Positions 21,202-27,200 of a stretch of 64,000 nucleotides of DNA are shown here, piece after piece. The stretch's first letter is position 1. Each line of letters begins with the position of its first letter. A program made the position numbers. This stretch comes from Podarcis gaigeae (taxonomy: Eukaryota): NCBI GenBank assembly GCA_964106915.2, contig OZ066920.1; one strand, 5' to 3'.

Positions 21202-24200
21202 AGGCTCTCTGACAGGGCAATTTTTATCTACTGCCAAGTTGGGAGTGGCAAGTTAACAATCTGGCTTTGTCAAGGTACTTAGGTCCTAACTAGGTGGTAG
21301 AACAGGCAGGATCAGGGCAGAGGGCAGAGAGTAGGCTGGTGAACACACTGAGAAATCAAGGTAGTGAAAAGACGTTTCCCCAAACCATTCATTGAAGGGT
21401 TACTGATTAAAGGAGATCTGGGACTGAGAGTATCTTGAGGCCTGCTTGCATATGCTAGCCTGCTGTCTGGCCTGGAGGTGGGTGACACTAGCAACAAAAT
21501 ATTAATATATAAGGGCAATAAAAAGCCAAGAACACATATTATACTCTTGCTCTTCAGGTCAAAGGGAGGCAGCAGGAGATGGTTTCTTAAAGTCTCATCT
21601 AAGTGGAAGAGAACTCCTCACTGGAGGTACAGAAAGTAAGACAACTAAGTAGGGATGGAAGACACAGATCAGTCGCTAACAATGTTGTGGCTTTAGTTTA
21701 TCCCATTTATGTGTCTTGCACCTTTATTCTGGGATCCACAGTTCCAAGAGAGGAGCCACTGCAAAAAGTATAAGACTCAAACTAATTTCAGGAAGAAATG
21801 AAGCCATTGCTTAGAAAAGAGAATTATTATACTGTTTTACCGCATTGAAGGTTTTTGGTTTCTTTCAGTTTCTGTAAGCTATAGTCAAGATTTTATATGA
21901 CAAACTTCCATGCATTCATCTATTTTGTTCACTTTCATTTTGTTCATTTGTAATGTGTGGATACTGCATATAGGATGTGGATGTTATTGTCTGATGTCAG
22001 AAGCTATTAAGAACATTATGGACAGGTTATTCGTTATTTAAGTACTATCATCATCATCAACAACAACATTATCAGTATTAGTGTAATCTTAATGAACTGA
22101 TTCATATGATTTCACTGAGGGCTCTTTTTTTGCATTTTTAGACTTTTAAATTGCAAGCTGCTTTGAGGGCATAGCCATAAATCATAAATAAAATAACCAG
22201 GCAGAGGCTTTTCAAAACAGCAAATAGTTTTGCACTATTGTGTTCTCTCTGGACATGGGATGTATATACCTTTGTGTTGGTAGCCCTACTTTACTTTTAC
22301 ATTTTTCTTAATTTAAATTATTCTTTCCTGTCCTTTCTAAATTGGTTTTGCTATCCAAATGAAGATACACTAGAATTCATATAGGGGCTGAAGTGTGAGC
22401 TGTGAGATTCCTAGTTCTTCAGTTACAAATTTACTAGGCAGCTTTAGAACTCTGACTTGCAGCCTCTGACAAAACTTGGGACCACACTTTACAGGCTTGC
22501 TCTTGCAGTTGAAAGGCAGATAAAAATGTTTAAAACTAAATACATTTCAGACTACAGACTAAGATAATGTATGTGAACATGTTCTAAATACTTGAAGTAC
22601 TCTCTGGAAATTACTGATACTATGGGAAAAATATATCAGATGTTTTCTCTTTCATAACATCCAATTAGCGATTTCATTCTAAGGCCCCGCATGTTCATAA
22701 TTTTAAGATTACCAAAGCCCCATTCATTTTATTTTGCCCCAAAGAACTACAGGAAAAAAACCTTGGCCTGATTTCTCCTGGAAAATGCCTCCTCCACTCA
22801 ACACATTTTCATAAACACACAAAAACAGAAAACACATAGTTATTTTCCAGTAAAATGAAATATATATATATATATATATATGCAGGTTTTGGTGTCCTCG
22901 GGTGTCTTCCCGTGTAAAAGTTGGGGTGTCTAGGCGACGTTTCGACGAGGTCTCACTCGTCATCTTCAGGCTGGTGCTTTCGGCTTCTTGTTACTGGAAC
23001 AGAGCGGGATCTCAATGTTTGAGTTCCTATAAATACTGTAGAGGGGGTGTGGTGTCTAGCCTCCAATGTTCTGGGCAGAGAGGAAGTTCCCAGGCTAGTG
23101 TGCCTTTTCTTCTTTTGTTCCTTAATTACTTGAGAGATACCTTGAGTGATTTCTTGAGTGATATCCTGAGTACCACTTAGGTGGGTCATTAGGTGTGGAT
23201 TAGTTGCTAAAGTCTTTGTGTCTTGACCTCTTGAACTTTGTGAAGAGTTTTCCTGAGAAGATGGCTGTATTGCACTTAGTTGTGCTTTGGCTTGGCTTCG
23301 TGTATAGGGGCGAGCTGTGGTTTTGTGGCTTGTGTCAGCCAGATCTGTGTAGGGATTGCAGGGGGGTGCAGCATCCGGAGGTGCCACCATGGATTGGCTA
23401 CTGGATGGTGTCAGTAATTCATCTGTGGAGAGGGTCTGGGTTTGGGTCTGGTGTGGTTGATTGGTGTTGGCGTTCTGTGTGCCTCTGGATCTGGTGTCAG
23501 TTTTTGTGGGGAGGGCTAATTTCCAGATGTCTGGCAAGCGGGATGTGTCGTCACGCTTGTTCATGTTGTGAGGGTGTTTCTCTATCTCGATGGCTTCCAT
23601 GATTATTCTCTTGTGGTGATGTTCCGTGTTAAAGAGCAATTTGGAATCTGCAAAATTAATTTCGTGTCCTGTTTCTTTCATGTGTTGGAAAAGAGAGGAA
23701 GTTTTTTCTTCTTTTTTGACGGCATTCTTGTGTTCTGCGATACGTGCATTTATTCGTCTGTTTGTTTGTCCAATGTACGTGGCTGGGCAGACTTTGCAGG
23801 GTATTTCATAGATCCCTTGGTTTTCCAACTGGATTTTATCCTTGGGGTTTCTGAGGATATTGGCTATTTTTTGGTTGGTGCAAAAGGCTGTTTTGATATT
23901 GTGTTTATGGAGGATTTTGCTAATTTTATCTGTAGTGCCCTTGATATAAGGAAGGAGGGCCATGCCATTGTTTTCTTCTGTGTCTTGGTTTTTGGGGGGT
24001 GTTTCCTTTTGGATTAGCTTCGTAATCCTGTTTTGCTGGTATCCATTGGCAATTAACACATTTGAGAGATTCTGTAACTCAGTTGTCAAGTGGTCTTTGT
24101 CAGCCAGGCGTTTGGTTCTGGAGATGAGAGTCTTGGCTACGGAGTTTATTTGTGCAGGGTGGTGGTGTGATTGTGCATGTAAGTAGCGGTTGGTGTGTGT

Positions 24201-27200
24201 TTTTTTCTGGTAGATAGTGTGTCCTAGGGAGCCATCAGGTTTTTTGTAGATTAGGACGTCAAGGAAGGGAAGTTGGTTGTTGGCTTCTATTTCCATAGTG
24301 AATTGTATTTTGGGGTGTAAGTTGTTGAGATGTGTGAGGAAGCTATCCAGTTTTTCCTTCCCGTGTGGCCAAATTACAAAGGTGTCGTCAACATATCTGA
24401 GCCAAAGTTTGGGTTTGTGTTCTGACTTGTCTAAAGCATTGGTTTCAAAGTGTTCCTCACAACATGAACAAGCGTGACGACACATCCCGCTTGCCAGACA
24501 TCTGGAAATTAGCCCTCCCCACAAAAACTGACACCAGATCCAGAGGCACACAGAACGCCAACACCAATCAACCACACCAGACCCAAACCCAGACCCTCTC
24601 CACAGATGAATTACTGACACCATCCAGTAGCCAATCCATGGTGGCACCTCCGGATGCTGCACCCCCCTGCAATCCCTACACAGATCTGGCTGACACAAGC
24701 CACAAAACCACAGCTCGCCCCTATACACGAAGCCAAGCCAAAGCACAACTAAGTGCAATACAGCCATCTTCTCAGGAAAACTCTTCACAAAGTTCAAGAG
24801 GTCAAGACACAAAGACTTTAGCAACTAATCCACACCTAATGACCCACCTAAGTGGTACTCAGGATATCACTCAAGAAATCACTCAAGGTATCTCTCAAGT
24901 AATTAAGGAACAAAAGAAGAAAAGGCACACTAGCCTGGGAACTTCCTCTCTGCCCAGAACATTGGAGGCTAGACACCACACCCCCTCTACAGTATTTATA
25001 GGAACTCAAACATTGAGATCCCGCTCTGTTCCAGTAACAAGAAGCCGAAAGCACCAGCCTGAAGATGACGAGTGAGACCTCGTCGAAACGTCGCCTAGAC
25101 ACCCCAACTTTTACACGGGAAGACACCCGAGGACACCAAAACCTGCATTCCTGTACCCGTGAAAATCTACGAAAGCAAATATATATATATATATATATAT
25201 ATATTCATTAAAAGAACCAATTCCAACAGTTTATGAACCAATCAGACTTGAAAGAATACTCAATCAAGTTGAACCAATTAGTTGGCTAAAGGTAGGTTGA
25301 AAAACAATAAATTAAAATACATTAGTTGTATAAAAAAAGATTACGGAATCAGCAACAAAGATTCATAAAAATTTCCATTCTCTAAGCAGCAAGAATGTAT
25401 AATGTAGATACTGCTCAGATTAAAACTCACCATATCAGTTCTATCCATCTCAGAAATTAGGATATTGCCTCCATTGGCAGTCAAAGGTGCATCAGTGTTG
25501 CTTGAAATATTCTCTGCAGTTTGAACATTGGGTGTTGGAAAGGTGAACTCCTGTACCCTGGACTCAGAAGATAAACATAGCTGATAGGAATACGGCAATG
25601 TTCCTTCTTCATAGTTTGGTGGGAAAATGACTGTGTTGTTTGAATGGGGAACAGGAGCAAAACACTGCAGGAATTTCGGGTTCCCTGATCGCCGAATCTT
25701 CATGAGAATGGCCAGAATCACTGTCAGGAGGAATAAGAATGAAATCAAAGCTAAGGCCAGCACCAAGAAGAACTGCAGATCCGATTGATACTCGGAGTCA
25801 CTGGGCTGGTGGCTAATTTCCGGAAGTGCTTCCTGGAAGTTCTCAGCAAAAACCAGGTTGAGACTCACGGTAGCAGATAGTGGTGGCTGCCCATTATCCT
25901 TGACTAAGATGACGAGCTTCTGCTTCACAGCATCTCTTTCCAGAAAAGCCCGTGAGGTCCTGATCTCCCCAGTATGGGAACCAATGGAGAACAGCCCAGG
26001 TTCTGTTGCCTGGAGCAGATAGTAGGAGAGCCAAGCGTTGTGTCCAGAGTCAGCATCCACAGCCACCACCTTGGTCACCAGATAACCCTCCTCTGCTGAG
26101 CGAGGCACCATCTCAAACAAGGAGGAGCCCTCTACTCCTTCAGAAGGGTAAAGAATCTGAGGGCTTTGGTCATTCTGGTCCAGAATGCACACTCTCATGG
26201 TGGCATTGCTGCTGAGGCGGGGGGAGCCTCCATCTTCGGCCCTCACCTCCACTTGAAACTCCCTGACTTGCTCATAGTCAAAGGAGCGCTGAGCATAGAT
26301 AGTGCCAGTCTCAGAATTAATGGAGAGGAAGGACGAGAGAGGCAGCCCCTCAGTGATGCTGCTGCGAATGGAGTAGGTGATTTGAGCATTCTGGTCCACA
26401 TCTGGGTCGGAGGCTTTGACCCTGAAAATGGAGGAGCCTGAAGGGTTGTTCTCTGGGACATAGGCAGTATAATAGGGTTTCTCAAAGGCAGGGCAGTTGT
26501 CATTGATGTCTGAGATCTGCAGTGTGATGGTTTTGTATGTGGAAAGAGGGGGGTCGCCTTTGTCTGTGGCTGTGACTGTGATATTGTACTCTGGAGTTCT
26601 TTCTCTGTCCAAGGGGGCATCTGTGAGAAGCTTATAATAATTATTGGAGGCTGATACCATCTTGAATGGCAAAGTGTGTTGTATTTCACAAGCAATCTTC
26701 CCATTATCTCCAGAGTCTCTATCATTTACATTGATAAGGGCTACCAGGGTTCCTACTGCAGAGTCTTCAGGGATGGGGCTGGATAAAGAGGCAAGAATCA
26801 CTTCTGGCGCATTGTCATTCTCATCTAGGAGTGTTATTTGAACTTTACAGTGAGCCACTAATCCACCTCCATCTCTTGCTTCCACTGCCATTACATATCC
26901 TTCTGTTTCCTCAAAGTCCAGAACCTCCTTAACTATAATTGTTCCATCTTGTGAACCCAAGTGGAACTTCTGACGAGCACTTTCAGGGATGTTACTAAAA
27001 CTATAGTTTATCTGGGCATTTGAACCTTCATCTCTATCTGTGGCTGTCACCTGGACCACAGAAGACCCTTTGGGGGCATTTTCTTTCAGCTTGACCGCGT
27101 ATACTTTTTGAGTGAAGACTGGTGGGTTGTCATTTGCATCAATGACGGTGATCCATATTTTGGCTGTTCCAGTTCTGGCAGGCTTCCCTCCATCCAGCGC

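What the first reader, a model, noticed from the sequence alone, without database searches (positions are those of the whole stretch)
22880..25178. Young Penelope-like element forming a ~694-bp inverted repeat inside the Pcdh-gamma pre-mRNA
Seen: arms 22880-23573 and 24455-25148 are reverse complements (I found no mismatch by eye, and mirrored ORFs translate identically) around an 881-bp spacer. The RT-GIY-YIG frame is intact and the element lies ~250 bp downstream of the V5 donor. Established: Penelope-like elements often integrate as inverted pLTR structures. Inference: the insertion is very recent, possibly polymorphic. Pre-mRNAs from V5-V11 would run through it on the way to the constant exons and could fold a ~0.7-kb perfect dsRNA stem (ADAR/Dicer substrate, possible splicing effect). 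The DNA palindrome could also destabilise a tandem array prone to recombination.
Basis: partly seen in the sequence, partly recalled or inferred. Interest (0 to 1): 0.75.

Follow-up and report, generated by a model that had tools for sequence, protein, structure and literature searches.

The report
Truncated Penelope retrotransposon, inverted twin insertion
This is an ordinary dead copy of a Penelope-like jumping gene that landed as two head-to-head pieces in an intron of a lizard protocadherin gene cluster; the perfect inverted repeat is real but typical of how these elements insert.

Summary
The inverted repeat is real. Arms 22880-23573 and 24455-25148 are 694 nt with 0 mismatches and an 881-nt spacer.

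It is one insertion of a Penelope-like element (PLE), made of two 5'-truncated copies joined head to head with both 3' ends facing out:
- Copy A, minus strand, 22880-24454 (1575 nt).
- Copy B, plus strand, 24455-25178 (694 nt plus a one-sided 30-nt "tail").
- Both sit between the halves of an (AT)n microsatellite.

Each arm carries a minimal hammerhead motif with an ATG at the start of its stem II. The two 3' ends lie 84 and 114 nt into that ORF. This is the layout reported for the Anolis element PAc (PMC11167929).

The frame is open, but the RT starts at residue 287 of the closest relative (Podarcis muralis, 92% identity), just before YVDD. The first 123 codons of the 623-codon frame are antisense arm sequence.

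The copy lies 252 nt past a GTGAGT donor of a gamma-B-like protocadherin variable exon. Seven such exons lie upstream in the window.

Youth (about 1-4 My or less at assumed rates) is plausible. The RNA hairpin is certain in silico. Polymorphism, editing and DNA instability are untested. This is a known kind of structure and of low interest.

The parts
22860..22881 (.). (AT)11 microsatellite, left flank of the insertion. Its last two bases overlap the first two of the arm.
   Evidence: The window has only three (AT) runs of 6 or more units, and this is one of them.
22880..24454 (-). Copy A: 5'-truncated PLE copy of 1575 nt, in the same orientation as the protocadherin genes. Its 3' end is at 22880 and its truncated 5' end at 24454.
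   Evidence: It aligns to P0001 (Podarcis muralis) residues 287-733 at 92% identity.
22880..23573 (-). Left arm of the inverted repeat. It holds the pseudo-LTR part of copy A: the C-terminal ORF extension, the hammerhead motif and the first 84 nt of the next ORF.
22936..22969 (-). Minimal hammerhead ribozyme motif, on the sense strand of the host pre-mRNA.
   Evidence: Descriptor scan. It is the mirror of 25059-25092.
22953..24452 (-). Element-coded reading frame of 499 codons plus a TGA stop. It runs from the RT C-terminal part through a linker, the GIY-YIG endonuclease and a low-complexity extension. It has no start codon of its own.
24384..24395 (-). The YVDD codons (RT active-site motif), 20 codons from the truncation point.
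   Evidence: Translation; DNA.
23694..23816 (-). GIY-YIG endonuclease core (Pfam PF01541 match, residues 213-253 of the 499-aa frame).
   Evidence: E 4.3e-4, 21.0 bits, below the 22.6-bit cut-off. GIY, YIG and a CxxC...H...H pattern are visible in the translation (by eye).
23574..24454 (-). The 881-nt "spacer". It is simply the part of copy A that extends beyond the length of copy B. The reading frame continues across 23573/23574.
24455..25148 (+). Right arm, which is copy B: a 694-nt 5'-truncated PLE copy in the opposite orientation.
25059..25092 (+). Minimal hammerhead motif of copy B: CUGAAGA, one unpaired U, a 6-bp helix II closed by G10.1-C11.1, then GAAA-CG-UC. The predicted cleavage site follows 25092.
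   Evidence: 3 hits in the window, 0 of 200 random windows with a hit. The features are those listed in PMC4209133.
25065..25178 (+). First 38 codons of the element's ORF (MTSETSSKRR...). The ATG sits at the start of hammerhead helix II.
   Evidence: P0121 begins with the same 10 residues, shares 26 of 38, and continues as an ORF beyond this point.
25149..25178 (+). A 30-nt "tail" found at this end only. It extends copy B from +84 to +114 nt of the ORF.
   Evidence: One search shows it is not mirrored on the left. Passages of PMC8557442 and PMC11167929 describe an optional 30-40-bp tail.
25179..25204 (.). (AT)13 microsatellite, right flank of the insertion.
25431..27848 (-). The donor GT is at 25430-25429.
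   Evidence: It has six cadherin repeats, Cadherin_2 and Cadherin_C_2. The best solved relative is protocadherin gamma B4 (6e6b).

Best explanation
One insertion event of a Penelope/Poseidon-type Penelope-like retrotransposon into an (AT)n microsatellite, in the intron 252 nt downstream of a gamma-B-like protocadherin variable exon.

Structure (shown). The product is two 5'-truncated copies joined head to head, with both 3' ends facing outward:
- Copy A (minus strand, 1575 nt) runs from just before the RT YVDD motif through the GIY-YIG endonuclease and the pseudo-LTR.
- Copy B (plus strand, 694 nt plus a 30-nt tail) holds the pseudo-LTR only.

The inverted repeat is the part the two copies share. 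The spacer is the extra length of copy A.

Mechanism (inferred). The element's ribonucleoprotein nicked both strands of the AT-rich target, and each 3'-OH primed reverse transcription. One priming began at the proximal internal start site of the template RNA (+84 of the ORF) and the other at the distal one (+114). That difference leaves a tail at one end only. The two incomplete cDNAs were then joined in the middle.

Consequences (inferred). The copy lacks most of the RT and cannot move by itself. The arms are identical because they were copied from the same family of template at the same moment. Either little time has passed since then, or they have been homogenised. In host pre-mRNAs started at the seven upstream variable exons in the window, the arms would pair into a 694-bp duplex inside the intron. 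The intron is removed by splicing, so no effect on the host is expected by default.
For: Perfect inverted repeat: 694 nt, 0 mismatches.

PLE identity:
- 975 proteins with E <= 0.001 among 5509 candidates.
- The best named hit is P0001, Podarcis muralis, 92% identity over 447 aligned positions. It carries precomputed PF00078 (RT).
- Snake and agamid hits are at 72-76% identity.
- 3 of the 120 listed hits carry precomputed PF01541 (GIY-YIG).
- The window copy matches PF01541 at E 4.3e-4.

Truncation: the alignment begins at P0001 residue 287, while the RVT_1 match in P0001 spans 152-330.

Hammerhead: my descriptor hits 25059-25092 (+) and 22969-22936 (-). None of 200 first-order Markov random windows had a hit. 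[quoted passage not shown]

ORF start inside the hammerhead:
- The 38 codons from 25065 match the N-terminus of P0121 at 26 of 38 residues, and P0121 continues as an ORF.
- The cut site lies 25 nt after the ATG, against 26 in PAc.
- The long 3' end lies at +114, against RT start sites at +111-118 in PAc (passages of PMC11167929).

One-sided 30-nt tail. Passages describe an optional 30-40-bp tail lying between two RT start sites.

Target site: two of the only three (AT) runs of 6 or more units in 64 kb flank the element. [quoted passage not shown] Hairpin: 692 of 694 arm positions pair with their mirror partner in the minimum-energy fold of 2399 nt (-1636.4 kcal/mol).
Against: - No reads and no second genome were available, so neither the assembly of the repeat nor its presence in other individuals or species was checked.
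- Rfam found no hammerhead family here, even at E <= 10 on 221 nt. It also missed the third motif at 59628, so it seems blind to this minimal type.
- I wrote the descriptor after seeing the motif, so its chance estimate is partly circular for the two arms.
- Helix I of the motif has only 2 base pairs (by eye).
- The GIY-YIG Pfam match is below the curated cut-off (21.0 against 22.6 bits).
- The target-site duplication cannot be delimited inside an (AT)n run.
- The flanks have no paralogous copy in the window that could serve as an empty site.
- Priming on both strands has been shown only in vitro, for a different element (PAc). The listed Anolis proteins are only 44-46% identical to this ORF.
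- The comparison of 3'-end positions with PAc rests on printed numbers and on my reading by eye of the template sequence printed in the paper, not on an alignment run here.
Confidence: 0.8

Rival explanations
1. Assembly artefact. The right arm, the junction at 24454/24455 or the perfect identity of the arms comes from mis-assembly or from polishing of a repeat, not from the chromosome.
For: PMC8557442 (passage) says the complex tandem and inverted structures of PLE insertions often cause problems in whole-genome assemblies. Polishing with reads that map to both arms would erase small differences. With reads shorter than 694 nt, the orientation of the spacer cannot be determined.
Against: - A simple fold-back read gives X followed directly by its reverse complement. 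Here the arms are separated by 881 nt of non-palindromic sequence that continues the reading frame of the left arm.
- The outer ends of both arms fall at positions expected for PLE 3' ends, one with and one without the 30-nt tail.
- Both flanks are (AT)n, which is rare in the window.
- The spacing of the variable exons around the site is ordinary once 2.3 kb is subtracted.
- The inner junction joins non-homologous sequence, so an overlap-based mis-join is not expected.
Confidence: 0.07
2. An old, fixed insertion whose arms are kept identical by gene conversion between them. Arm identity would then say nothing about age.
For: Intrachromosomal conversion between close inverted repeats is well known (recalled, for example sex-chromosome palindromes). 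No outgroup or population data were available here.
Against: - The 881-nt spacer, which conversion between arms cannot repair, still carries an uninterrupted frame of 293 codons that is 285/293 identical to P0001.
- The whole 499-codon frame of a non-functional copy has no stop.
- Both (AT)n flanks are still perfect runs.

All three points suggest little decay.
Confidence: 0.1
3. Two independent insertions of the same family into the same microsatellite, or a later rearrangement of one copy such as an inverted duplication by template switching at replication.
For: Microsatellites are preferred PLE targets, so repeated hits are possible.
Against: - Two separate events would not be expected to give 694 nt without a single difference.
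- They would not be expected to abut exactly at their truncated 5' ends with no target sequence between them.
- The inverted twin form is the described standard outcome of one PLE insertion.
Confidence: 0.03

Closest known systems
Poseidon/Penelope-clade PLEs of squamates, with PAc (Poseidon of Anolis carolinensis; PMC11167929) as the studied example
   Same: - RT followed by a C-terminal GIY-YIG endonuclease.
- A hammerhead motif in the pseudo-LTR, with the ORF's ATG at the start of helix II and the cut site 25-26 nt after it.
- 3' ends of inserted copies inside the first ~115 nt of the ORF.
- An optional 30-40-nt tail.
- An AT-rich target.
   Different: - It belongs to a different family. 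The listed Anolis proteins are only 44-46% identical, and the closest relative is a Podarcis muralis protein at 92%.
- In this family the reading frame stays open through the pseudo-LTR up to a stop inside the hammerhead loop.
- The copy here is truncated and non-autonomous.
[quoted passage not shown]
   Same: An inverted 5'-truncated copy adjoins the main copy at its 5' end and so forms terminal inverted repeats. The tail is present at one end only. The target is a microsatellite.
   Different: Here the "main" copy is itself truncated inside the RT. There is no full-length unit and no tandem pseudo-LTR.
L1 twin priming (Ostertag and Kazazian 2001; recalled, not read here)
   Same: Both nicked target strands prime reverse transcription, which gives an inverted internal junction.
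   Different: In L1 twin priming the second primer anneals inside the same RNA, so the two segments are different parts of one template and are not duplicated. Here both copies start at the element's own 3' start sites and share 694 nt.
Intronic inverted Alu pairs of primates as ADAR substrates (recalled, not read here)
   Same: An inverted pair of retroelement copies in one intron is predicted to form a long intramolecular dsRNA.
   Different: Alu pairs are about 300 nt long and 10-20% diverged. Here the duplex is 694 bp and perfect. No editing data exist for this locus.

Membership tests
Penelope-like elements (endonuclease-containing, C-terminal GIY-YIG type) | PLE-type reverse transcriptase | tested here: inconclusive
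   Only the part from just before YVDD onward is present. Pfam RVT_1 does not match the window copy. It does match the 92%-identical relative P0001 at residues 152-330, to which the copy aligns from residue 287. No phylogenetic placement of the RT was made.
Penelope-like elements (endonuclease-containing, C-terminal GIY-YIG type) | GIY-YIG endonuclease C-terminal to the RT in the same ORF | tested here: met
   PF01541 matches at residues 213-253 of the 499-aa frame, with E 4.3e-4 and 21.0 bits, just under the 22.6-bit cut-off. GIY and YIG are visible in the translation. 3 of the 120 listed homologues carry precomputed PF01541.
Penelope-like elements (endonuclease-containing, C-terminal GIY-YIG type) | Pseudo-LTRs, direct or inverted, formed by an adjacent 5'-truncated copy | tested here: met
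   Two 5'-truncated copies lie head to head and share 694 nt. The arrangement is described in PMC8557442.
Penelope-like elements (endonuclease-containing, C-terminal GIY-YIG type) | Hammerhead ribozyme motif in the pseudo-LTR | tested here: met
   A minimal hammerhead with all the sequence features listed in PMC4209133 is present in each arm. Rfam models do not detect it. Self-cleavage was not tested.
Penelope-like elements (endonuclease-containing, C-terminal GIY-YIG type) | [quoted passage not shown] | tested here: met
   30 nt at 25149-25178 are present at the right end only.
Penelope-like elements (endonuclease-containing, C-terminal GIY-YIG type) | AT-rich or microsatellite target with target-site duplication | tested here: inconclusive
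   (AT)11 and (AT)13 flank the element. The duplication cannot be delimited within a dinucleotide repeat, and no empty site was available.
Recently inserted, polymorphic transposon copy | Presence/absence variation among individuals, or absence at the orthologous site of sister species | not testable with these tools
Recently inserted, polymorphic transposon copy | Near-zero divergence between parts created at insertion | tested here: met
   0 differences in 694 nt. The 95% upper bounds are 4.3, 2.2 and 1.1 My for assumed rates of 0.5, 1 and 2 x 10^-9 per site per year. The rates are assumptions, and conversion or polishing would mimic youth.
Clustered protocadherin gamma variable-exon array | Tandem single-exon units, each with six cadherin repeats, a transmembrane segment and a short cytoplasmic part, followed by a splice donor | tested here: met
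   11 of 11 large non-PLE ORFs carry Cadherin and Cadherin_2 matches, and 10 of 11 also carry Cadherin_C_2. The exception runs off the window end. All are on the minus strand. A GTGAGT donor follows the exon next to the element.
Clustered protocadherin gamma variable-exon array | Splicing to the shared gamma constant exons | not testable with these tools
   The constant exons lie outside the window. The gamma assignment rests on the best solved relatives being gamma-B proteins in each construct-length class.

The most novel reading that the evidence does not exclude
The insertion is a very young allele that still segregates, and it changes which protocadherin isoforms neurons choose. Two routes are conceivable:
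- The 694-bp perfect intronic dsRNA, made only in neurons that fire one of the upstream variable-exon promoters, is hyper-edited or diced and recruits silencing to the locus.
- The right-hand pseudo-LTR points into the neighbouring variable exon from 252 nt away. It could drive antisense transcription through that exon and its promoter, mimicking the antisense RNAs reported to trigger promoter choice in the mammalian alpha cluster (recalled, not read here).
Probability: 0.04. Interest if true: 0.7.

Novelty: new member of a known kind. Interest (0 to 1): 0.22.

Why it matters
Taken at face value this is routine transposon annotation, and it corrects a claim of an intact element.

Its modest value is as a natural example. 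A single insertion shows both 3'-end types (with and without the tail) and both orientations. That is the genomic footprint expected if a PLE ribonucleoprotein primes on both target strands from two internal start sites, as seen in vitro for PAc.

If the allele proved polymorphic, it would offer a natural test of what a long perfect intronic hairpin does inside a stochastically expressed neuronal gene cluster.

Tried and rejected
- Rfam at E <= 1 on 22000-26000 and at E <= 10 on 24980-25200 gave no hammerhead hit. It gave none at the third motif either. I take this as low sensitivity of those models for minimal hammerheads, not as absence.
- blastn and tblastn of the element and of P0001/P0108 against the window found no further copy of the family.
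- blastn of both flanks against the window found no paralogous empty site.
- A search for longer proteins (875-2495 aa) found no relative closer than 53% identity. No full-length master copy was therefore seen.
- The folding energy of the 139-nt 3' region is not unusual (z -0.83). I make no claim for a conserved stem-loop at the RT start sites.
- Two AATAAA hexamers lie on the gene-sense strand inside the spacer. That is about the number expected by chance, and I make no claim from them.
- Considered and rejected: snap-back self-priming of a single cDNA. That would duplicate the internal (5') end with no spacer, not the 3' ends.
Figures S1B and S2 of PMC11167929 (RT start sites, tail) and the supplementary reptile hammerhead alignments of PMC4209133 could bear on the comparison, and I did not see them.

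
Full report
**Observation**

The repeat is exactly as described. Arms 22880-23573 and 24455-25148 are reverse complements over 694 nt without a mismatch, with 881 nt between them. The identity stops abruptly at both inner and both outer ends. The window has no N.

The other inverted pairs reported nearby are 31-39 nt long at 74-84% identity. They come from the AT runs and from a 12-nt tandem repeat inside the arms. 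A 694-nt perfect match is far beyond chance.

**What the element is**

The minus strand carries a 623-codon stop-to-stop frame (22953-24824). Its first 123 codons are only the antisense reading of the right arm.

The element-coded part (22953-24452, 499 codons) found 975 proteins at E <= 0.001 among 5509 candidates:
- The best named hit is P0001, an uncharacterised protein of Podarcis muralis, at 92% identity.
- Snake and agamid proteins follow at 72-76%.
- Many insect proteins follow at 45-60%.
- The listed Anolis proteins are at 44-46%.

These relatives carry precomputed RT domains (PF00078), and 3 of the 120 listed also carry GIY-YIG (PF01541). The window copy matches GIY-YIG at E 4.3e-4, just below the curated cut-off. 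It shows YVDD, GIY, YIG and a CxxC...H...H pattern in the translation (by eye). The host is therefore a lacertid-like lizard, and the element is a Penelope-like element (PLE) with a C-terminal endonuclease.

**The copy is not intact**

The alignment to P0001 starts at residue 287. The Pfam RT match in P0001 spans residues 152-330. The copy begins 20 codons before YVDD, lacks the N-terminal region and most of the RT, and has no start codon. It could not have moved on its own at any time since insertion. No other copy of the family is in the window.

**Anatomy of the arms**

Each arm ends with a minimal hammerhead motif (25059-25092 on the plus strand, 22969-22936 on the minus strand). The motif reads CUGAAGA, one unpaired U, a 6-bp helix II closed by G10.1-C11.1, then GAAA, then the palindromic CG, then UC. 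These are the features Cervera and De la Pena list for metazoan PLE hammerheads (PMC4209133, text parts 1-2).

A descriptor I wrote from those features hits only these two sites and a third at 59628-59659 in the window. It hit none of 200 first-order Markov random windows. I wrote the descriptor after seeing the motif, so the estimate is partly circular. Rfam sees none of the three.

An ATG sits at the first base pair of helix II (25065). The 38 codons from there to 25178 match the N-terminus of P0121 at 26 of 38 residues, including the first ten. P0121 continues as an ORF beyond that point.

The arms therefore consist of the end of one ORF, the pseudo-LTR with its ribozyme, and the beginning of the next ORF of a tandem template. 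This is the layout reported for PAc, the Anolis Poseidon element: the ORF begins at stem II, and the cut site is 26 nt after the start codon (passages of PMC11167929). Here it is 25 nt.

**The ends**

The left copy ends at +84 of that ORF. The right copy runs 30 nt further, to +114 (25149-25178), and this extension is not mirrored. Both ends abut perfect (AT)n runs of 11 and 13 units. The window has only one other (AT) run of 6 or more units.

The literature read here describes the following:
- An inverted 5'-truncated copy next to the main copy, a 30-40-bp tail often present at one end only, and a bias for microsatellite targets (PMC8557442).
[quoted passage not shown] The tail is the sequence between the two sites (PMC11167929).

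The window structure fits this point for point.

**Mechanism**

Shown: two 5'-truncated copies, 3' ends outward, one with the tail and one without, in a split AT microsatellite.

Inferred: a single event in which both nicked strands primed reverse transcription, one from each start site, after which the incomplete cDNAs were joined at 24454/24455. The spacer is nothing but the extra 881 nt of the longer copy, and the reading frame runs straight across 23573/23574.

**Age**

Zero differences in 694 nt gives 95% upper bounds of 4.3, 2.2 and 1.1 My for assumed rates of 0.5, 1 and 2 x 10^-9 per site per year. The rates are my assumption.

Other signs of little decay:
- A 499-codon frame without a stop in a non-functional copy.
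- A spacer whose 293 codons are 285/293 identical to P0001.
- Perfect flanking repeats.

Gene conversion between the arms or assembly polishing could also give identical arms. No reads, second genome or population data could be reached, so "polymorphic" remains a guess.

**Host context**

All 11 other ORFs of 300 aa or more are cadherin-repeat exons on the minus strand. The one next to the element ends at 25431 with G|GTGAGT, 252 nt from the tail end.

Its best solved relatives are gamma-B protocadherins in each construct-length class:
- EC1-6 construct: gamma B4 at 750 bits.
- EC1-5 constructs: gamma B2 at 580 bits, gamma A9 at 550, alpha 7 at 489.
- EC1-4 constructs: gamma B3 at 479 bits, alpha 4 at 382, beta 8 at 374.

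Exons were searched singly. "Gamma" therefore rests on similarity alone.

**Consequences**

Transcripts from the seven upstream variable exons in the window would contain both arms. That such transcripts read through to the constant exons is established knowledge for clustered protocadherins, recalled here. In a minimum-energy fold of 2399 nt, 692 of 694 arm positions pair with their mirror partner.

Such a duplex is a plausible ADAR or Dicer substrate (recalled). It lies wholly inside one intron, however, and the hammerhead on the sense strand would be locked in the duplex. I expect no effect by default.

The DNA-instability argument is weak. In yeast, recombination by Alu inverted repeats fell 300-fold when the spacer grew from 12 to 100 bp. 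Gross rearrangements fell 31-fold with a 1.5-kb spacer. Widely spaced repeats do become dangerous in long single-stranded DNA (passages of PMC10164571).

**Novelty**

The structure is a textbook PLE insertion, and PLEs are already recorded in lacertid gene clusters (passage of PMC9498476). In one search, 138 papers held at least 4 of the 5 terms on protocadherin and transposon insertion. None of the 12 listed concerned a PLE in a protocadherin cluster (listing only). I make no wider claim about what is in print.

**Unchecked**

- Copy number and consensus of the family.
- Orthologous sites.
- Read support for the assembly.
- Expression and editing.
- The supplementary figures of the two PLE papers.

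Noticed in passing
window 59628-59659 (+): A third minimal hammerhead-type motif: CUGAAGA, one extra base, a 6-bp helix II, then GAAA-GC-UC. It lies in non-coding sequence between two variable exons. It has no PLE coding similarity nearby and no second copy in the window. It may be a remnant of another PLE or of a PLE-derived non-autonomous element.
   Followed up: partly
proteins P0009, P0016 versus P0085, P0093, P0105: Outside squamates, the closest named relatives of this lizard PLE are beetle proteins at 59% identity. The listed Anolis proteins reach only 44-46%. This means either several ancient PLE lineages or horizontal transfer. No tree was built.
   Followed up: no
proteins P0003, P0063, P0125: PLE fragments are filed in public sets under misleading names: "P2Y purinoceptor 1 isoform X3" (a snake), "hypothetical protein [Escherichia coli]" on a 2615-nt contig, and "hemicentin-1-like" (a butterfly). 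These are probably gene-model fusions or contamination.
   Followed up: no
window 22953-23573 (-) and 24455-25075 (+): In this family the reading frame stays open for about 206 codons past the GIY-YIG domain, through the pseudo-LTR, and stops inside the hammerhead loop. This part is 118/132 identical to P0001, against 285/293 for the enzymatic part. It is either a fast-evolving disordered tail or not really coding.
   Followed up: partly
window 23129-23171 and 24857-24903: A 12-nt tandem repeat of 3.6-3.9 copies lies inside each arm, encoding a TQDITQEITQGISQ-like stretch.
   Followed up: no
window 24455-25178 (+) relative to the exon at 25431-27848 (-): The right-hand pseudo-LTR points into the neighbouring variable exon from 252 nt away. 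Penelope pseudo-LTRs are reported to hold the transcription start site (passage of PMC8557442). Antisense transcription through the exon is therefore conceivable, but it was not tested.
   Followed up: no
window 25113-25163 (+): The minimum-energy fold of the 3' region has a 6-bp stem (CACGGG/CCCGUG) around an AC-rich loop that contains the short 3' end. This is reminiscent of the AC-rich stem-loop at the PAc RT start site, but the fold is not better than shuffles (z -0.83).
   Followed up: partly
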